DNA of 64,000 nt from Candidatus Saccharimonadales bacterium (lineage in GTDB: Bacteria > Acidobacteriota > Terriglobia > Terriglobales > Acidobacteriaceae), in the NCBI GenBank assembly GCA_035568495.1, contig DATMNZ010000057.1:11315-75314 (forward strand). Reading direction: 5' to 3'. Positions 1,217 to 27,523 of the stretch are shown here, piece after piece. A program made the position numbers and the translations under genes. Under the pieces are notes generated by a model, which was not told where the DNA came from, searched no databases, and worked only from the letters and a program-made list of their open reading frames with translations. The first letter of the stretch is position 1; each line of letters begins with the position of its first letter.

Positions 1217-1496
1217 GGTCTTTGCACTCTCCTCTTACTGGAAAGCGGTAATCGATCGCCAGTCGCCGGAGGCGACGCCAGCCAGATTCTGCTCCGGTGG
1301 CTGCCGTCGCTTTTGGCGACTCTTCTATACTTCTCTTCTGCTGACCCGGCATTTACCCGTCCCGGCGCAAAGAACGCGCCAGGACGGGACATGCCGGGCT
1401 ATTTTCTTTTGTCGCCTTCGGCGACTGGTCTTCCATTATGGTCACAAATTCGCCTAATGACAGCAGAGCGGCGGCAAGAATACGGTTGGAAAAGAA

Positions 1497-1521
1497 CAGG
1501 GTCCGCCACCGGCGGACCCTG
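1497..1521. terminator. Bidirectional intrinsic terminator hairpin between mnmE and the convergent TonB-dependent receptor
   Basis: Perfect 11-bp stem cagggtccgcc / ggcggaccctg with a 3-nt loop. It is flanked by an A-rich run upstream and tttgaaaaaa downstream, so it is T-rich on both strands. Confidence 0.7.
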
Positions 1522-1549
1522 TTTGAAAAAAGCTTCAGCATGTTCCTCT

Positions 1550-4486: not shown

Positions 4487-4641
4487 TTCAACCTCCGCTG
4501 AAATTACCTGTGCAATGAATTGTTGGCCCACAGTTTGATTGTGGGGGAGAAGAGAATACCTGTCCGAAAGTAGTAGAACTGCGAAATCCTAGACAGCGGT
4601 TGTGAAAGGCAGGTTACGAGCGGATGAAGAAGGAGTGAAAA

Positions 4642-5283
4642 TTACAGCCAGATCACGCGCAGGGCGAGCGTGCCGGCAATGTCGTCGCCCTTGTCCTCTC
4701 CATGAACGAAGGTGAGGACGGCATTTCCGGGAAACGTATCGGCGAGGCGCAGTTCCCGGGAGATAAACATGCGGCTGCCATTGGCGCCGATATGTTCGTC
4801 GTAGGTCACTCCGGTCAGGTAATAGGCGTGGCCGCGCAGAAACAGCAAGGTAAGGCGCTGTTGGCGGATGCCGGCAATGGTGGCATCGAGGTTGGTGGGT
4901 GGTCCGGGCAAAAACTGCAATTCAAGCTGGACGTGGCGGCCATCGTTGAGCACGAATTCGCGATTGACTACTTCCGCCAGGGCCTCCATCGAAGGGGTTT
5001 CCGGAAGGCATACCTCGCCACGGTTCCAGCGCATGACCCAGAATGCCTGCTCGAGGGTTACATTCTGGCTTCTCAGCATGGCCTCAAGGCCCGCAGCCAC
5101 AGCCCAGTTTTCACACTTCTGGCTCGCCATCACCAGCTTGGGAGCGTCAAGATCAGCGGTCTGGCCGGCCTTGACATAAACGATGGCGTGTTTTTTCTTG
5201 TCATCGGCGGTCAGGCACACGGCCAGCGCCAGCACCAGAAGGGCAAGGGAAAGAAGACCAGGGGTCGGCAGCAATCGCCTCAT
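4642..5283 (-). CDS. Secreted hypothetical protein with possible Cys/His dyad
   Basis: Signal peptide MRRLLPTPGLLSLALLVLALAVC. SQKCENWAVAAGLEAML and GHAYYLTGVTYDEH resemble a papain-like Cys...His arrangement. No family recognised. Confidence 0.5.
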   Translation of the reverse strand: MRRLLPTPGLLSLALLVLALAVCLTADDKKKHAIVYVKAGQTADLDAPKLVMASQKCENWAVAAGLEAMLRSQNVTLEQAFWVMRWNRGEVCLPETPSMEALAEVVNREFVLNDGRHVQLELQFLPGPPTNLDATIAGIRQQRLTLLFLRGHAYYLTGVTYDEHIGANGSRMFISRELRLADTFPGNAVLTFVHGEDKGDDIAGTLALRVIWL

Positions 5284-5321
5284 CAAGCCCAAGTGTACCG
5301 CCTTTTGACGCCGGCGAAGGG

Positions 5322-5903
5322 TTACTTTGCCAATGCGGCCAAGGTCTTGCGGAAGAGCACATCGAAGGGTTGGTCCGCGAGCTTTTCCAGCCGGGTCATG
5401 GCCCTTTCGACAATGGCCCGCTGATAGCCGAGGTTTACGAGCGCGGAGATTACGTCTTCTTCCACGGGGGAGGTCGCAGCCGTAGCTTCCGGCGTGCCGA
5501 AAGAATCGAGTTTGTCACGCAGCTCCAGCACCATGCGTTCCGCGGTCTTTTTGCCGATTCCGGGAATGCGGGTCAGCAACGCCACGTTGCTGCCACGGAT
5601 GGCGCCCACCATGGCATCGGCGGCCATGCCACTCAGAATGGTGATGGCCAGTTTGGGCCCGATGCCGCTCACGCTCAGCAGCTTTTCGAAGAGCTGCTTG
5701 TCTTCGGGCTTGAGGAAGCCGAACAGCGCAAGCGCATCTTCACGGACGTGCGTATGGATGAACAGCGAGACCTCAGAGCCCAGCGCCGGCAGTCCGGTAA
5801 ACGTGGGGATGCTGATGATGACCTGGTAGCCCACGCCGGAGGCTTCCACGATGGCTTCATTGGGGTGCTTGGCGATCAGTTTTCCGCGAAGGTGGGCAAT
5901 CAT
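5322..5903 (-). CDS. ruvA: Holliday junction branch migration protein RuvA
   Basis: MIAHLRGKL... N-terminal OB domain, tandem HhH motifs (VSGIGPKLA, IPGIGKKTAERM) and a C-terminal domain III. Size of 193 aa fits. Confidence 0.93.
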   Translation of the reverse strand: MIAHLRGKLIAKHPNEAIVEASGVGYQVIISIPTFTGLPALGSEVSLFIHTHVREDALALFGFLKPEDKQLFEKLLSVSGIGPKLAITILSGMAADAMVGAIRGSNVALLTRIPGIGKKTAERMVLELRDKLDSFGTPEATAATSPVEEDVISALVNLGYQRAIVERAMTRLEKLADQPFDVLFRKTLAALAK

Positions 5904-5909
5904 CGTGGG

Positions 5910-6662
5910 TCATCCCCGGCGGCGAAAAATGAGGTTGAACTGAAACCCGGGTCCGGGCGGGAACAGCTCGGCGATCTTCCGCAGGCGTTCGGCCAGCGCC
6001 GCGGGCGCCAGCAGAGAGTATTCACGCTCGCGCAGTTCGTAGTAATCCACATCCAGGTAGAGCGAGAGCAGGTAGATGGCCACCGAATCGGCAAAGGCGG
6101 CAGCCACGAAGCTGGTGCGCGCTTTTTCGTCGATGCGGCCTTCGCCTTCGGCGGCGGCCTGACCAAGGGCCTGCTTGCGGAATTCGCAGGCGTCCACGCT
6201 GGTTTCGCCGCGCACACCACCGGTGGCCTGCTTCCATGCGAGTTCAGCGAATTCCTGGGAGACGCCCGCCGTTTCCACGAAGGCGTGGCTTACATTGATG
6301 TAGAACTCAAAGGCGATGGAGAACCGGTCATTGAGCAGGCGGGTGGAAATGAAAACGCACTGCGCATCGCCGGCGTCGATGTTGCAGTGGCAAGCGGCCT
6401 GATCGATCAGAGAGCTGTCATAGCGCTCGGGAACCAGGGTCTGTTCACCATCCTGCACGGCCAGCGGGACAAAATAGAAGGCCTTGCGGCTAAGGGCGGC
6501 TGCGATCACGCGGGGCACAGCGTTCACCAGGTTTTCCAAATCAGATGAAGGCAGACTGATTTCCCCGGCGGTGGCATAGCAAACGCCGTTGGCGGACTGT
6601 GTGACGCGAACGTCGCGAATCACTTCCTGCGCGGTGCGTGTTTCTTGAGCGGCTTGACTCAC
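5910..6662 (-). CDS. Hypothetical protein upstream of ruvA
   Basis: 250-aa ORF in high-GC coding-like context, 6 nt upstream of ruvA on the same strand. No recognisable motifs. Confidence 0.55.
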   Translation of the reverse strand: MSQAAQETRTAQEVIRDVRVTQSANGVCYATAGEISLPSSDLENLVNAVPRVIAAALSRKAFYFVPLAVQDGEQTLVPERYDSSLIDQAACHCNIDAGDAQCVFISTRLLNDRFSIAFEFYINVSHAFVETAGVSQEFAELAWKQATGGVRGETSVDACEFRKQALGQAAAEGEGRIDEKARTSFVAAAFADSVAIYLLSLYLDVDYYELREREYSLLAPAALAERLRKIAELFPPGPGFQFNLIFRRRG

Positions 6663-6711
6663 GGTATTATTCTAACGTAGGCGGCCGCTGCCGCCGGAAA
6701 ACAGGCTTCTT

Positions 6712-6945
6712 ATGGGCAAATTGATCGTCAGCGCCGGTATTGGCTTGGCCGCCGGCTTGATCTGTTTCTTTCTTTCCGTGGCTTTTCTAGCCATTCTGCT
6801 TCTCAGTGTCCGGGGCGCCAGCGGCCTTCATCCCGATATGACGCTGGCCTACCGTGTGGCTGCCCCGGTCGCGCTGTTGGCTGCCCTAAGCGGTTTTACC
6901 GTGGCGCTGGTGCGGTCCCGGCGCGCTCCCAAGCCAGCGAGTTGA
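6712..6945 (+). CDS. Small membrane protein (two predicted TM helices)
   Basis: 77 aa with hydrophobic stretches IVSAGIGLAAGLICFFLSVAFLAILLL and VAAPVALLAALSGFTVALV. Its stop overlaps the next ORF. Confidence 0.45.
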   Translation: MGKLIVSAGIGLAAGLICFFLSVAFLAILLLSVRGASGLHPDMTLAYRVAAPVALLAALSGFTVALVRSRRAPKPAS

Positions 6946-6962
6946 ATGGCCCTGGATACGTG

Positions 6963-7502
6963 ATGCATCTGCCGTCTTTCAAATACCATCCTGACCCGCT
7001 GGGCACGGGCAGCATCATGGCCTCCGACAAGCCGTGCCAGGTGTGCCGGCAGGCCCGCGGCTTCATCTACACCGCGGCGATCCATTCCATCATCGAATTG
7101 GATGTAGTGTGCCCGTGGTGTATCTACGATGGGGCGGCCCGCGTCCTCTTTCATGCCGAGTTCACCGAAGTCCATAGCGTGGGCGGCTATGGAGAATGGA
7201 CGCCGGTGCCCCTGGCCGTGGCTGAAGAAGTGGCCTTCCGCACCCCTGGATTCTCGGGATGGCAGCAGGAGCGGTGGTTTACGCATTGCGGCGATGCTGC
7301 GGCATTTCTTGGTCCGATGGGCCGCCAAGAACTGGAAAGTCTTGGCCTGGAAGCCGTGAGCATGGTTCGCATGGAAAGCGGTTTTGAAGGTGAGGAATGG
7401 GATTCATACTTCAAGAGCATGGACCGGCATGCCGGCCCGACCGCCTACGTGTTTCGCTGCCTGCATTGCGAATGCTTCGGCGGATACTCAGACATTCATT
7501 AG
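6963..7502 (+). CDS. cbrC: CbrC/UPF0167 family protein
   Basis: PSFKYHPDPLGTGS..., C-x2-C (CQVCRQARGFIY), CPWCIYDG and FRTPGFSGWQQERWFTHCGD match my memory of the CbrC (colicin E2 tolerance) family. ATG at 6963. Confidence 0.7.
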   Translation: MHLPSFKYHPDPLGTGSIMASDKPCQVCRQARGFIYTAAIHSIIELDVVCPWCIYDGAARVLFHAEFTEVHSVGGYGEWTPVPLAVAEEVAFRTPGFSGWQQERWFTHCGDAAAFLGPMGRQELESLGLEAVSMVRMESGFEGEEWDSYFKSMDRHAGPTAYVFRCLHCECFGGYSDIH

Positions 7503-7534
7503 TACAGTGAACGGCAGCTTAAGCAATATGGCAG

Positions 7535-7572
7535 ATCGGGTGATCGGTACATCGGGTGATCTGGTGATCGGA
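7535..7572. repeat. Low-complexity GGTGATC(GG) direct repeats
   Basis: The sequence gatcgggtgatcggtacatcgggtgatctggtgatcgg is related to gatcgggtaatcgggtaat at about 28433-28455. Confidence 0.5.
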
Positions 7573-7688
7573 ACTTCGAGCTCGCTCTGGCTTCACAAAT
7601 CTTCACACCTAAAGTTTGACCCCATGTTGAACAGGCAGTTAGACTTTCGCGCTATATCCGCAGCGACAGTAAAAGGAGAATCTACAAG

Positions 7689-9338
7689 ATGTTGAAGCGT
7701 TTAACAGCGCGTCTGGTGCTGGTGTGCATGGTGTTGGTGTTCAACGCAGCGGCCCAGGAAGAAAAATCCGAAAAAGCCGAAAAAGTTGATCTCGAGACGA
7801 TTTCCAGGATCCGTAACGAAGGCTTCCACAACTCCAAGATCATGGAGACCGCCAGCGGATTGATGGATGGAATTGGAGCGCGGCTGACCGGCTCGCCGAA
7901 CATGAAGCGCGCCAACGAATGGACACGCGACAAGCTCACCGAATTCGGGCTGGCGAATGCCCACCTGGAGCCCTGGAGCCCCTTCGGACGCGGCTGGTCG
8001 AACGAATCCATCAACGTGCGCATGATTGCTCCGGATGTCGCGCCTCTGATCGCCTATGCCAAGGCCTGGACGCCGGGCACCCCTGGCGAAGTCCGCGGTT
8101 CGGTGGTACACGTTAGAATCACCAGCCCCCAGGACTACGCGAGGTATAAGGGCAAACTGGCCGGGAAGATCGTCTTCTTTGGCGAAGAAGCGGATATCAG
8201 GCTTTCCGCCGAGCCTCTCTCTCAACGGCACACTGATAAGTCTCTGGCGGAACTGGGCCAGTACCAGATTCCTGCTGAAAGAAACAATGCGCGTTTTGCC
8301 GATTTCGCACAGCGGGCCCGCGACCTGCGGGCGATTGCCAAGTTTTTTGAAGATGAAAAAGTGCTGGCCCTGGTTGACCATGGCCGCGGGGCCATCTATG
8401 GCGGCACGGTGTTCGTGCAGCAGGGCGGTTCTTACAAAGTTGGCCAGACATCGAACCTCACGCAGGTTTCCATCGCCGGTGAACACTGGAACCGCATTGC
8501 CCGCCTGGTTGACCGCAATGTCGATGTGCAACTGGAGCTGAATGTCAAAAACAACTTCTTTGATGACGCCCTGACTCAGTGGGACACCATCGCTGAAATT
8601 CCGGGTAGTGACAAGAAAGAGGAAGTCGTTATGCTGGGCGCGCATCTTGATTCCTGGCATGGAGGCACGGGCGCCACCGATAACGGCGCGGGCTCGGTGG
8701 TCATGATGGAGGCGGTGCGCATCCTGAAGGCCTTGGGCGTAAAGCCCCGGCGCACCATTCGCATCGGCCTGTGGAGCGGCGAGGAGCAGGGCCTGCTCGG
8801 CTCGCAATGGTACGTCGCCCAGCACTTCGGCGCCCGTCCGGAATCCAAGGACCCGGAACGCAAAGGCGACCCAACCGTAAATCGCCGCGACACCGGGCCG
8901 ATGGTGCTGAAGCCGGAGCAGGCGAAAGTCTCGGCCTATTTTAACGTGGATAACGGGAGCGGCAAAATACGCGGCGTCTACCTGCAGGAAAACGCCGCAG
9001 TCGCGCCCATCTTTGAAGCCTGGATGAAACCCTTCAACGACCTGGGCATGAATACCCTCACCATGCGCAATACCGGAGGAACGGACCATCTGTCGTTTGA
9101 CGCCGCCGGCATTCCGGGATTTCAGTTCATTCAGGACCCACTGGAGTACGATTCACGCACCCATCATTCCAATATGGACGTCTACGACCGTCTGCAGCCC
9201 GAAGACCTGAAGCAGGCGGCGGTGATCGTCGCGTCGTTCGTTTACATGGCGGCCCAACGTGATCAGATGCTGCCGCGCAAACCGATTGAGAAAGAGTTGC
9301 CGCCCCCGCCACCTCGCGGCGAAACGGCGGCGCAGTAG
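7689..9338 (+). CDS. M28 family metallopeptidase (aminopeptidase) with signal peptide
   Basis: SD aaaggagaa precedes the ATG. Signal peptide LVLVCMVLVFNAAAQ. M28 motifs HLDSWHGGTGATDNGAGS, GEEQGLLGS and GGTDHLSF. Confidence 0.88.
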   Translation: MLKRLTARLVLVCMVLVFNAAAQEEKSEKAEKVDLETISRIRNEGFHNSKIMETASGLMDGIGARLTGSPNMKRANEWTRDKLTEFGLANAHLEPWSPFGRGWSNESINVRMIAPDVAPLIAYAKAWTPGTPGEVRGSVVHVRITSPQDYARYKGKLAGKIVFFGEEADIRLSAEPLSQRHTDKSLAELGQYQIPAERNNARFADFAQRARDLRAIAKFFEDEKVLALVDHGRGAIYGGTVFVQQGGSYKVGQTSNLTQVSIAGEHWNRIARLVDRNVDVQLELNVKNNFFDDALTQWDTIAEIPGSDKKEEVVMLGAHLDSWHGGTGATDNGAGSVVMMEAVRILKALGVKPRRTIRIGLWSGEEQGLLGSQWYVAQHFGARPESKDPERKGDPTVNRRDTGPMVLKPEQAKVSAYFNVDNGSGKIRGVYLQENAAVAPIFEAWMKPFNDLGMNTLTMRNTGGTDHLSFDAAGIPGFQFIQDPLEYDSRTHHSNMDVYDRLQPEDLKQAAVIVASFVYMAAQRDQMLPRKPIEKELPPPPPRGETAAQ

Positions 9339-22357: not shown

Positions 22358-22772
22358 TGCTGATGCTGTCGCTGGCCGGTGTCGCCGCAGGCGGGCTGAT
22401 CAGCATCGTTGTGGCGAAGGCGATATCCGCGGGGTTCGCCGGACTGGGCAAGCCCCAATACAGTCCACTTAAGGTGATCGAGTCAGCCAATTGCACGATA
22501 CGCCAGCGCCGGAGGCGCGATGAGAGGTTAGCCCAACGCGCAAGCGTTGGGAAAGGCAGGGGAGAGGATCAAAGCCCCTTCCAGGGGCGGCAGAGGAATG
22601 TTGGCAACGTAGGTCCACCTTCCCCTTAAGTGAACTGTATTGGGGCAAGCCAAACCTGGCGACGTTCATCGTGGTGCCGGCTTCAGTTCTGGCGGTAACG
22701 ATGATCGCCTGTTGGCGCCCGTGCGGCGCCCAGCAAGAGGTGACCCCATCCAAGGCGCTACGGTTCGAATAG
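22358..22772 (+). pseudogene. 3'-terminal remnant of an FtsX/ADOP-type ABC permease gene, interrupted by a small inverted-repeat insertion
   Basis: LLMLSLAGVAAGGLISIVVAKAISAGFAGLGKP ... NLATFIVVPASVLAVTMIACWRPCGAQQEVTPSKALRFE* resembles the last two TM helices and the ...DPMVALRYE tail of acidobacterial duplicated orphan permeases. There is no N-terminal part and no start codon. Confidence 0.6.
22446..22651. mobile_element. Small inverted-repeat insertion inside the permease remnant
   Basis: The ends ccccaatacagtccacttaagg (22453-22473) and ccttaagtgaactgtattgggg (22624-22644) are reverse complements. There is an internal hairpin cccaacgc-gcaa-gcgttggg. Confidence 0.55.
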
Positions 22773-22851
22773 TGGGCGCCTGACGCGGAGGGTTTTCTTT
22801 GGTAATGCGGAAAAGCTCGCTTGGCCTGAAATTATTCAAATGCCGTATATT

Positions 22852-24336
22852 TTAGAAATTGAGGATGCGTGGCTCTGGCCAGTGTTCAGGTGCCGCTACA
22901 AGCGTGTATGCGGCCGCTTGGGCAGAATGACCGATTAGGGTCTCACAGTAGCAGCCCGGCTTAGATCTGGCGTCGAAGCCGACGAACCCAAAGTTCTGAG
23001 ACAAGATGTCGAATTGTATGAAGTTTCGTGGCGGAGAGAATGTCCCGGTCAACCACCCAATACCGTAGCTCGCCACCATGGCACCTGCTAATGAGGTGAA
23101 GTGACCTACCGTCGGGAGGCCAGGTACATCGCGCCAGTAGGGTGCAGCCACCTCGCCTCGCTCAACTGCCGCCCAGGCTTCTTCACGCCGACGTTTTTTC
23201 TCTTCTTCGGGCATGAGCTCAACCGCCGCGGCCCATGGATCGACGAGATCTAAACAGTATGCACAAGGCAGACCTGGTGCGTACACCGTGATTTGACCAA
23301 CTTCATGGTTGACTGCCCCTTCTTGCCCTTCGAGAAGCACTCCAACATCGAGCGAGGGGACAAGGTATCTGAAGGCGAGCTCTGCGGCTGCCACGCGACT
23401 GTAGTTCGTGTCGGTGCAGCAGAGCAGGAGATCGGCAGTGACAATATGGTCGCGCACGAGTGGTTGGACGATGTTCCCGACAATCGCAATCACTTCCGCA
23501 GCCGGATTGATTCTGAGAATCAGTTCTCGAAGGGTTTCTACTTTGAACGGGTATGGCTCTTCCACAAAATGTTTGGCATAACTGCCATGCACCCGTTCCA
23601 AATTTGATTTCTCGAGCCTTTCCGGGTCAACGAGTATGAACCGGCCCACGCCAGCACGAGCTAACACATTGGCCGCGGGGGCGCCAGTGCCGCTGCAGCC
23701 TGCTATGACAACCGTCGAGTTAAGAAGGCGGGTGGCCGCCGGCTCCCCGTACAAACGACGCAGCCGTTCGCGATATTCAGGGTCATTAATGCGTTTGGGA
23801 ACCTTTGAATCTCTCTTAATCTGGCTAGGTGAGACAGTGATAAGTTCCTGCACTGCGTAAATGCGGCCTTCAATCCAGCCACGGCCAGATAAGCTAAAAT
23901 TCCCATTCCTGTCCATACTGACGATCAGGCTGAAATAGATCCTTGCCTTGGAGAACCCGCTGAAATAATCGCGGTAGTAATCATCCATGTCATCGTCTAA
24001 TGAACTCGGCAGCACTGGAACGCCCTGTGGGTGAGAATGAATCACGCCAATAAAAATGTCAGAAGTTCTCAGGAACATGGCCGCTCGGACTCTGTATTGT
24101 TCGTGGAACTCCACTATTGGAATGTCCGGGTTCAGGTCGCCAGGCCGCGGTGCCAGCACATCTGCAATGGTGATCACGCATTCTTGCGCTGATTCGTGCA
24201 CGCCGAAAACGATGAACGTGGCCCACTCCTTCGTGGGATACCGAGAGAACAGCAGCGACTCCATCTGCGTGCGCACTGTCCCGGTCATCCTTACGATTGC
24301 GGGTCGAGCATTATCCTTTACTGTTTTGTAAGCCAT
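22852..24336 (-). CDS. JAB/JAMM metalloisopeptidase - E1-like (ThiF/MoeB-type adenylyltransferase) fusion protein
   Basis: The N-terminal about 165 aa carry an upstream Glu (TKEWATFIVFGVHES) and the JAMM motif HSHPQGVPVLPSSLDDD (H-x-H-x7-S-x2-D). The C-terminal E1 domain has the nucleotide loop VVIAGCSGTGAPAANVLARAGVG, LVDPERLEKSNLERV, CCTDTNYSR, PCAYC and a distal CYC. Confidence 0.85.
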   Translation of the reverse strand: MAYKTVKDNARPAIVRMTGTVRTQMESLLFSRYPTKEWATFIVFGVHESAQECVITIADVLAPRPGDLNPDIPIVEFHEQYRVRAAMFLRTSDIFIGVIHSHPQGVPVLPSSLDDDMDDYYRDYFSGFSKARIYFSLIVSMDRNGNFSLSGRGWIEGRIYAVQELITVSPSQIKRDSKVPKRINDPEYRERLRRLYGEPAATRLLNSTVVIAGCSGTGAPAANVLARAGVGRFILVDPERLEKSNLERVHGSYAKHFVEEPYPFKVETLRELILRINPAAEVIAIVGNIVQPLVRDHIVTADLLLCCTDTNYSRVAAAELAFRYLVPSLDVGVLLEGQEGAVNHEVGQITVYAPGLPCAYCLDLVDPWAAAVELMPEEEKKRRREEAWAAVERGEVAAPYWRDVPGLPTVGHFTSLAGAMVASYGIGWLTGTFSPPRNFIQFDILSQNFGFVGFDARSKPGCYCETLIGHSAQAAAYTLVAAPEHWPEPRILNF

Positions 24337-24701
24337 GCCAGTACCTCATCGACATAGGTGTGGAAGCCGTGGATGCGAGGATCCCAAGTTGGGCCGCCAC
24401 CGCCGTTATGAGGGTGGTAACTGACTCTTGTCCATGCGCGATCTCCGAACTGTACGTTTTCTTGGACAGCTCCTGGGACCCTGCCTTTAAGGGGGGAGTC
24501 CGACGGTAAGAATGCATAATCAAGCATGGCCTGCGGGTAACCAGAGGGTACCGGCACCAGGACATCTGTTCTCTCGACCAGTCCCAATGTGGAAGGCAGA
24601 CCGGTGTAAATGACCGCGTCGGGGCTTTCAAGCAGCTGAGCACTCCACGATAGCAGTGAAAGCTCACTGAGAATTCGTGCTTTCGCTTCGGAATTCACCA
24701 C
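24318..24701 (-). CDS. Prokaryotic E2/UBC-like protein (resembles Prok-E2 family E), containing no cysteine
   Basis: The GTG start overlaps the Ubl stop (GTGGTGA), and the 3' end overlaps the JAB-E1 start by 19 nt. VLVPVPSGYPQAMLDYAFL and WTRVSYHP...W resemble the remembered Prok-E2_E pattern. The 127-aa sequence has zero Cys residues. Confidence 0.6.
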   Translation of the reverse strand: MVNSEAKARILSELSLLSWSAQLLESPDAVIYTGLPSTLGLVERTDVLVPVPSGYPQAMLDYAFLPSDSPLKGRVPGAVQENVQFGDRAWTRVSYHPHNGGGGPTWDPRIHGFHTYVDEVLAWLTKQ

Positions 24702-24934
24702 CAGCCACCCTTCACGCCGTTACGGGTCACCAAAAAGTGGTCACCATTCTTAATCTCGACTACGCCGGTCAGCGGGTCGCCAGCCTGGCCAGATTCGCCC
24801 AGTTCCCGGCGAACCGTTGCCGTCTCACCGGTCAGACTCGCAAGTCGGGCGATTGCGTCAACTGTCATGCGGCTCGTAACACCGTCTGCCTCTGTCTTTT
24901 TCTTTCCGTTTACAAAAATGATTAAATGATCCAT
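24695..24934 (-). CDS. Small ubiquitin-like (beta-grasp, Multiubiquitin-domain-like) protein ending in GG-WW
   Basis: 79 aa: MDHLIIFVNGKKK...VVEIKNGDHFLVTRNGVKGGWW*. A strong SD AAGGAGG lies 9 nt upstream of the ATG at 24934. It is the first gene of the overlapping three-gene operon. Confidence 0.7.
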   Translation of the reverse strand: MDHLIIFVNGKKKTEADGVTSRMTVDAIARLASLTGETATVRRELGESGQAGDPLTGVVEIKNGDHFLVTRNGVKGGWW

Positions 24935-24975
24935 GGCTTCTGGCCTCCTTTGTTCTTGGTTCTTTCCCGGAACTC

Positions 24976-24990
24976 CCACATTTGATGTGG
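24976..24990. promoter_or_regulatory. Candidate operator palindrome in the divergent intergenic region
   Basis: CCACAT-ttg-ATGTGG, about 40 nt upstream of the Ubl start, within the 317-bp region shared with the divergent sigma-like operon. Confidence 0.25.
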
Positions 24991-25251
24991 AGAGCAAGCG
25001 AAATTTGTTTGTATGTCTGTTATGCGGGTGCGAGCGGACTTTTTGGCCATTTGTGACCCCAAACCGCCGCTCTGCCGTGTTCCCAGTCGGAGCGCCCGCT
25101 GCAGTGTTTGACGGCAAAAGTTTTTGAAGGAAACGGCTAAAAATAGGACCCTGGCCCGCATAAGAAATGGGACTGCGCAAGTAAGGCTTTTGAGAAACAC
25201 CGGCCAATTCCAGGCGGGTTAGCCGCATCCCGAGAGGTACGGGTAAAAGAC

Positions 25252-25869
25252 GTGCAACAAGACACTTTTAGCAGCTTGAATCGCCGGCTGACGGCATTCG
25301 CGTTGCGGCTCTTCACGGAACATGGCATGCCCGGCGCGGGCGCTGTGATACCTGGTACCGGAATGTCAGCCGAAGATCTCGTCGGGAAGATTCTTGTTGA
25401 GTATTGCGAAGGCAAGATCACGCATCACCCGTCAAGAGGTTCCCTCATAACGCTGCTCTGCACAGGAATTCGCAATGACTTGTACGATGCTCTTTCAAAG
25501 GCATCTCACGACAAAGAGACGGTGCCTGATGAACGCGATGAGAAAGCTGATGATGACCATTCGGGCGACAAGAGCCTGGCTGCACACCCTGACCCAAATG
25601 TTGCGGATCCAGTCGTTGGGCTTGACGAACAGAGGTACCAGGAACACGTGCTCAGCTATTTTGAGGACGAATCTGAGCTGAGAGAGGTCTGCGAAGCGGT
25701 TTTTGATGTTGACCTTCACAAGCCCTCCGAAATCGCTAATTGTCTTGACATTTCGGTTGATGAATTTCACAACCGCAAAAAAAGATTAAGACTCCGTTTA
25801 TGTAAATACGGCATAGTCAGGTTGGATAAGAATGCAAAAGAAGCTCAACCCACGCGAAGTAAGAAATAA
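25252..25869 (+). CDS. ECF-like sigma-70 family protein (putative)
   Basis: Region-2-like segment (SAEDLVGKILVEYCEG...LITLLCTGIRNDLYDALSK), an acidic linker, and a region-4-like HTH (KPSEIANCLDISVDEFHNRKKRLRLRL). GTG start. Confidence 0.5.
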   Translation: MQQDTFSSLNRRLTAFALRLFTEHGMPGAGAVIPGTGMSAEDLVGKILVEYCEGKITHHPSRGSLITLLCTGIRNDLYDALSKASHDKETVPDERDEKADDDHSGDKSLAAHPDPNVADPVVGLDEQRYQEHVLSYFEDESELREVCEAVFDVDLHKPSEIANCLDISVDEFHNRKKRLRLRLCKYGIVRLDKNAKEAQPTRSKK

Positions 25870-26317
25870 GCTAATTAGGCTTTCAGAAGCTCTGTTTGGT
25901 GAGCCGGCAGAAGTAGACGAAGGTGAAGCGGAAGAGCTACTTGCTGCCGCGGGTATTGATGCATCCGAGCTGGACGCCAGGATGTATTCACGACTAAACA
26001 CAACAGCCCAACGCTATTGGACGAAACAACAGTCAGTTCCTCCTCTTCTCAAGCAGGCACTGGAAGAGCTGCGCCCTGCGAGCGCCCCGGCACGCAATGA
26101 AAAAGAACTTGCGATACAAGCAAAGTCTCTTATTGAAAGGCTTGTGGAGACGGCGAAGCTGGTCCCTGCGCTAGCTAAATATCAAACTCCGAGATTCGCA
26201 ACTCTGTACAGAAACAAAGGGCAGATCACTGAATCAGACAAAGACTTAATCGACAAGGCGAAATCTGAGATCGAAGACAAGCTCCGGAAGATGGGGGAAG
26301 AGGGAAATGAGCCTTAA
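25832..26317 (+). CDS. Hypothetical helical protein (candidate anti-sigma or adaptor)
   Basis: 161-aa ORF overlapping the sigma-like gene by 38 nt and the ImmA gene by 11 nt. Predicted all-helical and acidic. No family recognised. Confidence 0.5.
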   Translation: MQKKLNPREVRNKLIRLSEALFGEPAEVDEGEAEELLAAAGIDASELDARMYSRLNTTAQRYWTKQQSVPPLLKQALEELRPASAPARNEKELAIQAKSLIERLVETAKLVPALAKYQTPRFATLYRNKGQITESDKDLIDKAKSEIEDKLRKMGEEGNEP

Positions 26318-27164
26318 TCGAGGACCGGTGTTTGCAAGAATGCTCATTGAAGAGTTGGGTGGCCTTCGAGACGTATTTTCGATTGCGACGGAGCTTCGCC
26401 TGGAAGTACGTTGGGTTGCCTCGTCCGGGTTCGAGGGTGCTCTCGTAAGACCCACAAACATTCCAGTGGGATTGATCCTTGTCCGAGACTCGATTAGGGA
26501 ACCAGGACGAAAAGCGTTCACAGTTGCCCATGAAATTGGTCACTTTGTGATTCCCGGCCACGATCAAGCTGACTTATGCACCGCTCGGGACATAGAAAAT
26601 TGGTCGGATGACGCTAAGGAACTGGAACGTGAAGCCGACGAATTTGCGGCCGAACTTCTAATGCCGAAATCCGTCGTTCAACCGATGATTTGCTCTGAAC
26701 GGCCGTCACTGACCCTGATCGAGCGTATTGCACAGGCCACCAATGCTTCGCTCTCTGCTGCTGGCAGGCGGTACTGCGATCTCACTTCAGAGAGATGCGC
26801 GTTTGTTTGGAGCACTAGAGGCGTTGTTTCTTGGTCAAAATGCTCGGCAGAATTCGCGCATCGGCTTTACAAGGGTACTGAAATTCTCCCAGGGACATTT
26901 GCATTTGATTGTTTTAAACAACAGGAAGTTCCGAGGAGGCCAGAACCAGTCGATGCGGATCTTTGGCTGGCCAGCGAACGTCTGATTCCAGGATCAAAGC
27001 TGTATGAGGATTCACGGTTTCTCAGGTGGTATGAGAGTGTAGTTTCACTCCTCTGGATCGATAAGCATATTGAAAAATACCATGAGGATGACGATGCGTT
27101 ACTGAAAGAACTGGATCCAAGTGATTTTGAGTTAAGCAAAAAGCGGTGGCCTGGTCGCAAGTAG
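26307..27164 (+). CDS. ImmA/IrrE family (M78) zinc metallopeptidase with C-terminal sensor-like domain
   Basis: HExxH motif FTVAHEIGHFVIPGH followed by EREADEFAAELLMP, plus about 150 aa of C-terminal extension. Confidence 0.8.
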   Translation: MSLNRGPVFARMLIEELGGLRDVFSIATELRLEVRWVASSGFEGALVRPTNIPVGLILVRDSIREPGRKAFTVAHEIGHFVIPGHDQADLCTARDIENWSDDAKELEREADEFAAELLMPKSVVQPMICSERPSLTLIERIAQATNASLSAAGRRYCDLTSERCAFVWSTRGVVSWSKCSAEFAHRLYKGTEILPGTFAFDCFKQQEVPRRPEPVDADLWLASERLIPGSKLYEDSRFLRWYESVVSLLWIDKHIEKYHEDDDALLKELDPSDFELSKKRWPGRK

Positions 27165-27523
27165 ACTTGCAACCTCGCCAAATCAAAAACACTATCTTCA
27201 AGCCTTCTGCCGCGTCTCGTTGCTTACAGGGCAGCGGAGCAGTTCCTTCAGCTTGGGTTCGCGGGCTGGCGCCCGAGAACCCAAACTTCAGGATGACAAA
27301 GTCCGAGAGTGCGATTGGGGAACCGAGCGCGACGTTCGCTGCTCGGCAAGTACGGTCGCTAGCCAATACGCGGGTGCGCCAGTACGGACAGAGTACCCAG
27401 AGCGCCCACTGCCGCCCACTGCGCCTGCCCTTTCGTCTACCCTGCCCGATGTGATATAAGAACTTCCTCGTCACTTATATAGATTCATCGAAGCTGTCCT
27501 TCACCCTCAGGAGGAGATGCAAC

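What the first reader, a model, noticed from the sequence alone, without database searches (positions are those of the whole stretch)
25252..27164. Divergent sigma-like / helical protein / ImmA-protease operon as a candidate damage- or infection-responsive switch for the Ubl cassette
Three overlapping plus-strand genes (38-nt and 11-nt overlaps) diverge from the Ubl operon across a 317-bp region. That region holds a CCACAT-n3-ATGTGG palindrome. The genes encode a protein with sigma-70 region 2- and region 4-like segments, an acidic helical protein, and an ImmA/IrrE HExxH metallopeptidase with a C-terminal sensor-like extension. Established knowledge: ImmA/IrrE-type proteases cleave partner repressors to derepress ICEs, prophages and defence operons, for example CapP/CapH with CBASS. 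Inference: the HTH repressor appears to be replaced here by a sigma / putative anti-sigma pair. That would be an unusual positive-control variant of this logic.
Basis: partly seen in the sequence, partly recalled or inferred. Interest (0 to 1): 0.62.

Follow-up and report, generated by a model that had tools for sequence, protein, structure and literature searches.

The report
Sigma factor switch with CapP protease
Next to a bacterial ubiquitin-like conjugation cassette sits a portable three-gene regulator (a divergent sigma factor, an unknown helical protein and a CapP-type DNA-damage-sensing protease) with its own conserved pair of divergent promoters, which probably switches the neighbouring defence genes on rather than merely de-repressing them.

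Summary
The three overlapping plus-strand genes, their 38- and 11-nt overlaps and the 317-bp divergent region are real.

- **Protease (285 aa):** a full-length CapP homologue. It keeps the HExxH motif, the third zinc ligand and the cysteine switch.
- **Sigma-like protein (205 aa):** a very divergent sigma-70/ECF-type protein, supported by fold, profile and transitive Pfam evidence.
- **Middle protein (161 aa):** an orphan all-helical family with no HTH, no known anti-sigma domain and no fold match.
- **Palindrome:** at chance level and not conserved in the nearest relatives.
- **Conserved cis element:** a bipartite motif, TGGCnAAAA-N14-CGCATA. It occurs exactly twice in the 64-kb window, both times in the intergenic region and in divergent orientation. 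A third, weaker copy lies just upstream of the sigma gene.
- **Related loci:** in about 90 loci, almost all Acidobacteriota, the trio is always syntenic and the motif follows it. The cargo changes: type I-like Bub, type II Bub, an E2-E1 fusion, or EVE-domain/mobile-element genes.
- **Other phylum:** an Abditibacteriota plasmid has the same layout, with the M78 peptidase fused to a UvrD helicase.

Best reading: a portable, damage-responsive positive-control switch in which CapP destroys an anti-sigma and so frees the sigma. The sigma and CapP assignments are shown. The anti-sigma role and the cleavage are inferred. This is a new variant of the CapH+CapP logic.

The parts
22852..24336 (-). JAB/JAMM peptidase-E1 (ThiF) fusion, BubCD-like; last gene of the cargo operon
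   Evidence: Pfam ThiF 1.1e-28 and Prok-JAB 0.0065. PADLOC E1-E2 models. L008 orthologue 2e-284.
24318..24701 (-). Cysteine-free E2 (Prok-E2_E), BubB-like
   Evidence: Pfam Prok-E2_E 2.6e-08, above the cut-off. No Cys residues, as described for Bub E2s.
24695..24934 (-). 79-aa ubiquitin-like protein ending ...GGWW; first gene of the cargo operon
   Evidence: ORF and AAGGAGG ribosome-binding site. Orthologues in L007 and L008. No Pfam hit of its own. Multi_ubiq proteins occupy this position in L009 and L090.
24976..24990 (.). CCACAT-N3-ATGTGG palindrome in the predicted Ubl 5' leader; probably fortuitous
   Evidence: Present. At chance level. Not conserved in L007 and deleted in L008.
25021..25048 (-). 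Cargo-facing bipartite promoter-like motif GGCCAAAA-N14-CGCATA (P_cargo), about 80 nt upstream of the Ubl ATG
   Evidence: Exact match, one of only two in 64 kb; 0.02 expected. Conserved in L007 and L008 and in the same orientation in the other cargo classes.
25135..25162 (+). Sigma-operon-facing bipartite motif GGCTAAAA-N14-CGCATA (distal P_sig)
   Evidence: Exact match. Conserved in L007-L010.
25202..25229 (+). Weaker proximal copy GGCCAATT-N14-CGCATC, about 22 nt upstream of the GTG start; in most relatives the only P_sig sits at this position
   Evidence: Two mismatches. Conserved in L007 and L008. Positional equivalent of the -45/-48 sites in the Bub type II loci.
25252..25869 (+). Divergent sigma-70/ECF-type sigma factor: sigma2 (res ~6-86), acidic disordered linker (87-120), sigma4 (126-185)
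   Evidence: TIGR02937 7e-4, full length. AF2 model. Foldseek. Superfamily profile against PDB sigma factors, 9e-6 to 3e-4. 22 of 83 relatives hit Sigma70_r2. phrog_1740, 6e-5. Invariant R74-N75-D76..D79 and I161-A162..N174-R175-x-K177.
25832..26317 (+). 161-aa soluble all-helical orphan protein; proposed cleavable anti-sigma
   Evidence: No Pfam, NCBIfam, PHROG, PDB sequence or fold match. 94 clusters, all inside the trio. Invariant L80-R81-P82 and Y126-R127-x-K129, the latter in the lowest-confidence linker before a C-terminal helix.
26307..27164 (+). CapP-type M78 zinc peptidase with HTH/GAF-like C-terminal sensor region and cysteine switch
   Evidence: PADLOC capP 3.6e-53, profile positions 22-242 of 242. 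PDB 7T5T CapP 6.4e-22, residues 33-256. R68, H75, E76, H79, C91, W99 and E109 invariant in 48 sequences.

Best explanation
The three genes form a portable transcription switch that controls the adjacent, divergently transcribed cargo. Here the cargo is a type I-like Bub ubiquitin-like conjugation cassette.

The first gene encodes a highly divergent ECF-type sigma factor. It directs RNA polymerase to promoters of the form TGGCnAAAA-N14-CGCATA. One such promoter faces the cargo, and one or two face the sigma operon itself, giving positive autoregulation.

The middle protein is proposed to be a cytoplasmic anti-sigma of a new family that holds the sigma inactive. The third protein is a CapP peptidase. 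By homology with characterised CapP and IrrE, binding of single-stranded DNA produced by DNA damage or phage infection releases its cysteine switch. It would then cut the anti-sigma, most likely at the invariant Tyr126-Arg127 (alternatively Leu80-Arg81). That frees the sigma and turns on both operons.

Shown here:
- The identity of CapP.
- The sigma-family membership of the first protein.
- Strict synteny of the trio.
- The motif and its exclusive association with the module, whatever the cargo.

Inferred:
- That the sigma recognises the motif.
- That the middle protein binds the sigma.
- That CapP cleaves the middle protein.
- That ssDNA is the trigger.
For: **CapP**
- PADLOC capP 3.6e-53 over the whole profile; PDB CapP 7T5T 6e-22.
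- The catalytic H75/E76/H79/E109, the switch Cys91 and Arg68 are invariant in 48 sequences. Arg68 corresponds to the ssDNA-binding R90 of E. coli CapP.

**Sigma**
- Full-length weak hit to TIGR02937.
- The AF2 model has two helical domains joined by a disordered acidic linker. All of the top ~50 Foldseek hits are sigma-70 family, and the best are ECF SigH, RpoE and SigL.
- An exhaustive HMM search finds 464 representative relatives. 22 of the 83 scanned hit Pfam Sigma70_r2, best 1.8e-9.
- The superfamily profile hits PDB sigma factors at 9e-6 to 3e-4.
- PHROG sigma factor hit at 6e-5.
- The Abditibacteriota homologue passes Pfam's Sigma70_r2 cut-off and aligns to the family with hhalign probability 96%.

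**No HTH repressor**
-.

**Promoter**
- The exact motif occurs twice in 64 kb, both copies in the 317-bp region and divergent; 0.02 expected.
- In 600 kb of related loci, 88 of 100 matches lie within 500 bp upstream of the sigma gene. The other 12 lie in front of additional cargo just after capP.
- Positions not used in the search are also conserved: T before GGC in 60 of 79 sites, and C-T at spacer positions 17-18.
- No sigma-70 consensus promoter is found in the region.

**Modularity**
- The trio is syntenic in every locus long enough to show it, with four cargo classes.

**Candidate substrate**
- Y126-R127-x-K129 is invariant in 54 sequences.
- It lies in the least confident, linker-like segment and is followed by a C-terminal helix.
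- This matches the F82-R83 cleavage site plus C-terminal helix of CapH.

**Damage link**
- In EVE-class loci the same motif precedes SSB, a WGR DNA ligase and ArdC-like genes.
- The plasmid analogue fuses the M78 peptidase to a UvrD helicase and a PD-(D/E)XK nuclease.

**Expression**
- Soil metatranscriptome contigs cover parts of both operons at low depth.
Against: - There is no direct evidence that the middle protein binds the sigma or is cut by CapP. No complex prediction could be run.
- The middle protein matches no known anti-sigma domain.
- It carries a helix-Gly-helix signature at residues 33-52, so a degenerate DNA-binding role cannot be fully excluded.
- The window sigma itself falls below the curated thresholds of Pfam and NCBIfam.
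- No transcription start sites are known. The RNA evidence is thin and unstranded.
- In the largest EVE class the cargo-facing copy of the motif is degenerate.
- If the only promoters of the sigma operon depend on the sigma itself, basal expression needs an explanation, such as leak or a weak housekeeping promoter.
Confidence: 0.55

Rival explanations
1. The middle protein is a diverged CapH-like DNA-binding repressor that has lost a recognisable HTH signature. CapP cleaves it to de-repress, as in canonical CapH+CapP. The sigma factor is an extra downstream layer, or only an accessory.
For: - Lau et al. list the gene between the sigma and capP as 'capH' in 24 CBASS systems.
- The middle protein has a helix-Gly-helix signature, EAxELLxxAGIDxxEL.
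- The middle protein of the Abditibacteriota plasmid has a further HTH-like segment, WTVGQLAKELDIPKELALKLVRG.
- The Y-R cleavage-like motif followed by a C-terminal helix resembles CapH.
Against: - No HTH family hit even at E<=1. No HTH fold among the Foldseek hits. No PDB CapH hit with the family profile.
- The putative recognition-helix positions are acidic and variable.
- No conserved palindromic or repeated operator is present. The only conserved cis element is asymmetric, has fixed spacing and is orientation-specific, like a promoter.
Confidence: 0.15
2. The sigma-like protein is itself the CapP substrate and acts as a DNA-binding repressor or a sigma mimic (PhyR-like) rather than as an RNA polymerase subunit. 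CapP would cut its long acidic linker. The helical protein would be an adaptor or a CapP inhibitor.
For: - Two domains are joined by a 30-residue disordered linker, formally like CapH's two domains.
- The Foldseek hits include PhyR/NepR complexes.
- In the published AF3 prediction, CapP contacts CapH's HTH domain through its GAF domain. Sigma region 4 is also an HTH domain (my inference).
Against: - Apart from L109, the linker is not conserved, so it carries no candidate cleavage motif.
- The -35/-10-like geometry, the fixed 14-nt spacer, the placement upstream of ribosome-binding sites and the strand specificity all fit a promoter, not an operator.
- No separate housekeeping promoter is detectable.
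- The core-binding-type motifs of region 2 (EDLv..il, RNDxxDAL) are invariant.
Confidence: 0.1
3. The trio is primarily the induction switch of a mobile genetic element, analogous to ImmR/ImmA. Its position next to the Ubl cassette in this window is incidental, and it does not regulate that cassette.
For: - Most related loci carry EVE, RepB primase, VirB11-like ATPase, SSB and ArdC genes, not Ubl genes.
- The module lies in a low-GC islet.
Against: - A motif copy faces the Ubl operon at the right distance in the window and in L007 and L008, and in the type II Bub loci.
- The window islet contains nothing but the trio and the Ubl cassette.
- The same pairing recurs in an unrelated phylum.
Confidence: 0.1

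Closest known systems
CapH+CapP (Lau et al. 2022, bioRxiv 10.1101/2022.04.27.489752; Calloji et al. 2026, bioRxiv 10.64898/2026.05.16.725639)
   Same: - Full-length CapP homologue with an M78 peptidase, an HTH/GAF-like sensor region and a cysteine switch.
- Encoded divergently from a defence or stress operon, including 6E/Bub ubiquitin-like operons.
- The expected trigger is ssDNA from DNA damage.
- The candidate substrate has an aromatic-Arg site followed by a C-terminal helix, like CapH F82-R83.
   Different: - There is no XRE-type HTH repressor.
- The partners are a sigma-70-family protein and an orphan helical protein.
- The conserved cis element is a promoter-like bipartite motif, not an operator.
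- The logic is therefore positive control (release of an activator) rather than de-repression.
'Sigma-70 present' CBASS loci in Lau et al. 2022, Table S1 (24 systems, e.g. Bradyrhizobium sp. WSM1417)
   Same: Judged from consecutive IMG gene numbers, the gene order is the same: cargo, one extra gene (the sigma), 'capH', capP.
   Different: - Those loci were only noted, not analysed.
- Their middle gene was called capH, and I could not retrieve its sequence.
- They come from other phyla (Alphaproteobacteria, Bacteroidota), and the cargo is CBASS.
ECF sigma / anti-sigma pairs controlled by regulated proteolysis (e.g. RpoE-RseA with DegS/RseP, SigW-RsiW); from established knowledge
   Same: - A two-domain sigma2-sigma4 factor that is autoregulated from its own promoter.
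- It is co-transcribed with its presumed inhibitor, and activation is by proteolysis of that inhibitor.
   Different: - The presumed anti-sigma is soluble, has no zinc-binding or other known anti-sigma domain and has no membrane span.
- The protease is a cytoplasmic ImmA/IrrE-family M78 enzyme encoded in the same operon.
- The signal is intracellular DNA damage rather than envelope stress.
IrrE/DdrO (Deinococcus) and ImmA/ImmR (ICEBs1, prophages)
   Same: - An M78 metallopeptidase that senses DNA damage and cleaves a transcription regulator encoded beside it.
- IrrE structures are matched at 6e-5 and 5e-4.
- Many relatives of the trio sit in mobile elements.
   Different: The substrates of those systems are HTH repressors. 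No sigma factor is involved.
CapK+CapS and CapW/BrxR (EMBO J 2026, PMC13373217)
   Same: Portable 'controllers of adjacent pathways', found upstream of Bub and other immune operons and responsive to DNA damage.
   Different: The proteins are unrelated (a kinase with a STAS-wHTH repressor; a WYL repressor). Both work by de-repression.

Membership tests
CapP (CBASS-associated / controller-of-adjacent-pathway peptidase) | Sequence membership across the peptidase, HTH and GAF-like regions | tested here: met
   PADLOC capP 3.6e-53, profile positions 22-242 of 242. PDB 7T5T 'CapP' 6.4e-22, query residues 33-256. Pfam Peptidase_M78 6e-13.
CapP | HExxH plus a downstream Glu zinc site, and a cysteine-switch loop | tested here: met
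   H75, E76, H79, E109 and C91 are invariant in 48 unique trio CapPs. D95 and D101 in the loop are mostly acidic. Compared with the description.
CapP | Activated by ssDNA; cleaves its partner regulator | not testable with these tools
   Only the conserved Arg68 (equivalent to R90) and aromatic residues in the C-terminal region were seen. Biochemistry is needed.
CapH | N-terminal XRE-type HTH DNA-binding domain | tested here: not met
   No HTH family hit for the 161-aa protein at E<=1. No HTH fold match. No PDB CapH hit with the profile. No hidden HTH ORF nearby.
CapH | Cleavage site (hydrophobic-Arg) in a linker before a C-terminal helix | tested here: inconclusive
   Invariant Y126-R127 lies in a low-pLDDT segment before helix 134-157. 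An alternative site is L80-R81. This is a resemblance only.
Sigma-70 family, group IV (ECF-type) | Region 2 and region 4 domains detectable by sequence models | tested here: inconclusive
   The window protein itself is below the curated cut-offs: TIGR02937 19.2 bits against 42.9, and no Pfam hit. Support comes from phrog_1740 at 6e-5, the family profile against PDB sigma factors at 9e-6 to 3e-4, 22 of 83 relatives hitting Sigma70_r2, and a homologue above the cut-off linked by hhalign at 96%.
Sigma-70 family, group IV (ECF-type) | Two-domain sigma2-linker-sigma4 fold | tested here: met
   AF2 model with pLDDT 72: three helices, a disordered linker, then four helices. All of the top ~50 Foldseek PDB hits are sigma factors; the best is SigH 5zx2_F, probability 1.00, E 1.9e-3.
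Sigma-70 family, group IV (ECF-type) | Cognate -35/-10 promoter, typically also in front of its own gene | tested here: met
   The bipartite TGGCnAAAA-N14-CGCATA motif lies upstream of the sigma gene and of the cargo, is exclusive to the module and has fixed spacing. Recognition by this protein is inferred, not shown.
Sigma-70 family, group IV (ECF-type) | Binds core RNA polymerase and directs initiation | not testable with these tools
   Requires in vitro transcription or pull-down.
Known anti-sigma domains (ZAS/ASD class I, NepR/CnrY class II, RsbW kinases) | Recognisable anti-sigma domain or HxxxCxxC zinc motif | tested here: not met
   No Pfam or NCBIfam hit. No Cys or His residues at all. 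No fold match. Anti-sigma function would therefore be that of a new family.
Bub (6E/DUF6527) type I operon (cargo) | Ubl, cysteine-free E2 (Prok-E2_E) and JAB-E1 fusion | tested here: met
   The E2 has no Cys.
Bub (6E/DUF6527) type I operon (cargo) | DUF6527 serine protease BubE ('all Bub operons possess bubE'), and a Ubl-E2 fusion | tested here: not met
   No DUF6527 relative in the window, L008 or L010. The Ubl and E2 are separate ORFs overlapping by 7 nt. L009 does carry DUF6527.

The most novel reading that the evidence does not exclude
This would be the first defined case of an ImmA/IrrE/CapP-family protease that activates transcription by destroying a cytoplasmic anti-sigma factor of a new fold. 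That would release a new, deeply divergent ECF-like sigma with its own promoter code (TGGCnAAAA-N14-CGCATA). The cassette is portable and links DNA damage or phage attack to ubiquitin-like (Bub) defence systems, EVE-domain proteins and mobile-element repair and transfer genes in Acidobacteriota. Analogues in other phyla replace the sensor domain with a UvrD helicase-nuclease.
Probability: 0.45. Interest if true: 0.75.

Novelty: new variant of a known kind. Interest (0 to 1): 0.66.

Why it matters
Three families of 'controllers of adjacent pathways' are known for bacterial immune operons: CapW/BrxR, CapH+CapP and CapK+CapS. All three work by relieving repression.

A CapP coupled to a sigma / anti-sigma pair would be a positive-control version, with several consequences:
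- It brings its own promoter specificity, so the cargo is silent without the module and could be moved between hosts as a self-contained unit.
- It offers a ready-made, orthogonal, damage-inducible expression switch.
- It gives a testable regulon signature (the motif) for finding further damage-induced genes in Acidobacteria, which are poorly studied.
- It would explain the unexamined 'Sigma-70 present' note for 24 CBASS systems.
- It extends the substrate range of M78 peptidases beyond HTH repressors.

Tried and rejected
- **Palindrome as operator:** rejected. It is at chance level and is not conserved.
- **Sigma-54 reading of the TGGC element:** rejected by inspection. The GG/GC spacing is wrong and the spacer is not conserved (sequences).
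- **Housekeeping promoter scan:** nothing found in 24700-27500.
- **Single-sequence and family-profile searches of the sigma-like protein against the PDB:** only noise. Significant sigma hits appeared only with the wider superfamily profile. Designed repeat proteins at the top of that list are low-complexity artefacts.
- **Helical protein:** no result from Pfam, NCBIfam, PADLOC (only weak ZorA/HerA coiled-coil noise), PHROGs, PDB sequence or Foldseek.
- **Hidden capH:** small ORFs around the trio have no HTH.
- **tRNA or integration site:** none in 15-35 kb.
- **BubE:** not found in the window.
- **tblastn of the window sigma and of P0181 against plasmids:** no match. P0197 gave the single Abditibacteriota plasmid hit.
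- **EMBO J version of Lau et al.:** not held. The sequences behind the IMG accessions in Table S1 could not be fetched.
- **The single sigma-helical fused ORF in L002:** cannot be told apart from a long-read indel error.
Full report
**1. What is in the sequence**

On the + strand there are three ORFs: 25252-25869 (GTG, 205 aa), 25832-26317 (ATG, 161 aa) and 26307-27164 (ATG, 285 aa). They overlap by 38 and 11 nt. All three starts are backed by conserved N-termini in homologues.

On the - strand there are three more:
- a 79-aa Ubl (24695-24934, ending GGWW);
- a Prok-E2_E E2 (24318-24701);
- a JAB-ThiF(E1) fusion (22852-24336).

The divergent region is 317 bp. CCACAT-TTG-ATGTGG lies at 24976-24990. 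The whole ~4.4-kb unit has a lower GC content (0.49-0.56) than its housekeeping flanks (0.58-0.62), like a small islet.

**2. The protease is CapP**

- The 285-aa protein matches the PADLOC capP model at 3.6e-53 over essentially the whole profile. It matches the crystal-structure sequence of CapP (7T5T) at 6.4e-22 over residues 33-256, and IrrE more weakly. The 'C-terminal sensor-like extension' is therefore the HTH/GAF-like part of CapP.
- H75-E76-x-x-H79, E109 and the cysteine-switch Cys91 are invariant in 48 unique sequences of the family. So is Arg68, which sits seven residues before the first His, like the ssDNA-binding R90 of E. coli CapP.
- The features used for comparison are those described by Calloji et al. 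2026.

**3. The 205-aa protein belongs to the sigma-70 family but is very divergent**

- Alone it gives only sub-threshold hits: TIGR02937 7e-4 over its full length, no Pfam hit, and phrog_1740 'RNA polymerase sigma factor' at 6e-5.
- An AF2 model built from 18 relatives (pLDDT 72) shows a three-helix domain, a 30-residue disordered acidic linker and a four-helix domain.
- Foldseek against the PDB returns sigma-70-family chains for essentially all of the top 50 hits. ECF sigmas SigH, RpoE and SigL come first (E 2e-3, probability 1.0). TM-scores are low because the relative position of the two domains is arbitrary.
- An exhaustive HMM search finds 464 representative relatives. Of 83 that were scanned, 22 hit Pfam Sigma70_r2, best 1.8e-9. 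A profile of these 83 hits PDB sigma factors at 9e-6 to 3e-4, several over the full length.
- The invariant residues fall where ECF sigmas have regions 2.1/2.2 (S39-x-E-D42-L; R74-N75-D76-x-x-D79) and 4.2 (P158-x-x-I161-A162 ... N174-R175-K-K177-x-L179).
- A family hallmark is an inserted hairpin, PGTGxS, before region 2.1.

**4. The 161-aa protein is an orphan**

- It has 94 clusters in 5.8 billion proteins, all unnamed and without Pfam domains.
- It gives no hit in Pfam, NCBIfam, PHROGs, PDB sequences or PDB folds.
- It is predicted to be all-helical (seven helices, pLDDT 70). It is soluble and has no Cys or His. It is only marginally acidic, with pI 5.8.
- Across members down to about 30% identity, the invariant positions cluster in three places:
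  - an N-terminal LSxxLxGxPxE...EAxxLL...G segment;
  - LLKxAL-x-x-L/F-R-P (L80-R81-P82);
  - Y126-R127-x-K129...D136.
- The last motif sits in the lowest-confidence, linker-like stretch (121-129), just before a long C-terminal helix (134-157).
- CapP cuts CapH between F82 and R83. The helix that follows docks on the peptidase. From established knowledge, IrrE cuts DdrO at Leu-Arg. Y126-R127 (or L80-R81) is therefore a plausible cleavage site. This is inference.

**5. Synteny and cargo**

A scan of one genome per species found six loci, all Acidobacteriota. A metagenome scan found 177 relatives, of which 80 loci were kept.

In every locus long enough to show it, the three genes occur in the same order. 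The same holds for divergent members of the helical family that were looked up separately.

The gene(s) transcribed divergently from the sigma gene vary. Among 68 loci with at least 700 bp upstream, many of them near-identical:

| Cargo class | Loci |
|---|---|
| EVE-domain protein, often near RepB primase / VirB11-like genes | 42 |
| Type II Bub-like (Multi_ubiq, DUF6791-ThiF, DUF6527) | 16 |
| Type I-like Bub, as in the window (L009 also has DUF6527); the window itself and L007 are of this type too | 3 |
| Prok-E2_C-ThiF fusion | 2 |
| Unclassified | 5 |

The trio is therefore a portable regulator. It is linked repeatedly, but not exclusively, with ubiquitin-like conjugation systems. For naming, Bub types follow Ye et al.. 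The window cassette differs from their type I: its Ubl and E2 are separate ORFs and it lacks BubE.

**6. The conserved cis element is a promoter-like motif, not the palindrome**

The palindrome is not a conserved element:
- A perfect palindrome with 6-bp arms occurs in 47% of shuffles of the region.
- It is changed in L007 and deleted in L008, the two closest loci.

Instead, every cargo class shows TGGCnAAAA-N14-CGCATA upstream of the sigma gene on its strand. A second copy lies on the opposite strand, facing the cargo.

In the window:
- The exact core GGCnAAAA-N14-CGCAT occurs only twice in 64 kb, at 25022-25048 (-) and 25135-25161 (+). The expectation is 0.02, and 0 of 100 shuffles reach 2.
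- A weaker third copy at 25202-25229 (+) is conserved in L007 and L008. It sits where most relatives have their only sigma-proximal copy.

In the related loci:
- In 600 kb, 88 of 100 matches with at most one mismatch lie within 500 bp upstream of the sigma gene. The other 12 lie just downstream of capP, in front of further genes: SSB, an ArdC-N/M78 zincin and a WGR-domain DNA ligase.
- Positions that were not part of the search pattern are conserved too: T before GGC in 60 of 79 sites, and C-T at spacer positions 17-18.

The motif is asymmetric, has a fixed spacer and always points toward a gene. It lies 35-130 nt upstream of a ribosome-binding site. No sigma-70 consensus promoter is detectable in the region. 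This is what an ECF-type promoter with autoregulation looks like. That this particular sigma reads it is inferred.

**7. An independent analogue**

A distant superfamily member led to the Abditibacteriota plasmid AP024153.1. That plasmid carries a Multi_ubiq Ubl, a Prok-E2_E E2 and a JAB-E1 fusion. Diverging from them are:
- a sigma that passes Pfam's Sigma70_r2 cut-off (6e-10) and aligns to the window family at hhalign probability 96%;
- a 204-aa unknown protein whose N-terminus weakly resembles the helical family (probability 30%);
- a 1145-aa protein in which an M78 peptidase is fused to a UvrD helicase and a PD-(D/E)XK nuclease.

Its intergenic region also carries two divergent elements that share GGCAATT ... 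AGC(C)TTTATA, though their spacing differs by 1 nt. With only two instances, this is suggestive only.

The same design (sigma, small partner, M78 peptidase with a DNA-sensing part, next to a Bub-like cassette) thus recurs in another phylum.

**8. Mechanism proposed**

- The sigma drives both operons from the bipartite promoters.
- The helical protein holds the sigma inactive.
- CapP is switched on by ssDNA and cuts the helical protein, which releases the sigma.
- Positive feedback follows through the promoters in front of the sigma operon.

Shown: sections 2, 3, 5 and 6. Inferred: sigma-promoter recognition, anti-sigma binding, the cleavage and the signal.

The rival readings are scored in the Rival explanations section and seem less likely, for the reasons given there:
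- the helical protein is a degenerate CapH-like repressor;
- the sigma-like protein is itself the substrate, or a mimic;
- the module regulates only mobile-element functions.

**9. Expression**

A soil metatranscriptome run holds contigs identical to parts of both operons at low depth, with almost none over the intergenic region. This is compatible with transcription of both units in situ. The data are unstranded, thin and not free of possible DNA carry-over.

**10. Relation to the literature**

- CapH+CapP, CapW/BrxR and CapK+CapS are the described controllers. 219 of 544 Bub operons carry CapW or CapH+CapP.
- Full-text searches found no paper describing a sigma / anti-sigma / CapP module.
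- The only trace is one sentence and the 'Sigma-70 present' notes in Lau et al. 2022 for 24 CBASS systems. There the consecutive gene numbers imply the same order: sigma, 'capH', capP.
- I could not retrieve those sequences, so I do not know whether their middle gene is an HTH protein or a relative of the helical family.

**11. Verdict**

It is a new variant of the CapP regulatory logic, and probably a new anti-sigma family. It is not a categorically new kind of system.

Noticed in passing
window 24695-24701 (junction of the Ubl and E2 ORFs); 22400-22852: The Ubl ORF ends ...KGGWW and overlaps the E2 ORF by 7 nt in another frame. Described type I Bub operons instead encode a Ubl-E2 fusion that the JAB domain cleaves. 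No DUF6527 (BubE) gene follows the JAB-E1 gene in the window, L008 or L010, although L009 has one. The E2 has no cysteine.
   Followed up: partly
window 22500-22555 and 22800-27200: The trio plus cargo form a low-GC islet (0.49-0.56 against 0.58-0.62). Contigs of a soil metagenome run break at 22526-22555, where depth jumps from 12 to 62. This suggests a repeated or variable sequence at the left border of the islet. No tRNA gene lies nearby.
   Followed up: partly
L002 9986-11086: In one long-read MAG the sigma-like and helical proteins are read as a single 366-aa ORF. Alignment with L001, L013 and L020 shows 1-nt differences near the junction. It is either a natural fusion or an assembly indel.
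   Followed up: partly
L046 6149-6238; L050 8403-8430; L080 9431-9519; L051, L052, L058, L070, L083-L086 (equivalent sites): In the EVE-class loci, further copies of the TGGCnAAAA-N14-CGCATA motif lie downstream of capP. They are sometimes a second divergent pair. They stand in front of SSB, an ArdC-N + M78 zincin protein, a WGR-domain ATP-dependent DNA ligase and a small HATPase_c protein. This looks like a local damage/mobile-element regulon.
   Followed up: partly
L090 (plasmid AP024153.1, record 1345-8620): An Abditibacteriota plasmid has the same design, but the M78 peptidase is fused to a UvrD helicase and a PD-(D/E)XK nuclease (1145 aa). Its middle protein carries an HTH-like segment (WTVGQLAKELDIPKELALKLVRG) that is absent from the window protein.
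   Followed up: partly
L065 4935-5834 and equivalents in about 42 loci: The commonest cargo of the trio is a single EVE (PUA-like) domain protein of about 226-299 aa with an unannotated N-terminal part. It lies next to RepB-primase and VirB11-like ATPase genes. Its function is unknown.
   Followed up: no
window 25135-25229: The window lineage (with L007-L010) has two tandem sigma-facing promoter-like copies about 67 nt apart. Most other lineages have one, at -45 to -48 or at about -113 to -125 from the start codon.
   Followed up: no
window 25832-26000 (helical protein residues 33-52): The segment EAxELLxxAGIDxxEL is conserved in the helical family and in the plasmid analogue. It weakly resembles a thrice-repeated segment of the PDB chain 5i8l ('Lysozyme'; summed E 0.006, individual repeats not significant). 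Its meaning is unknown.
   Followed up: no
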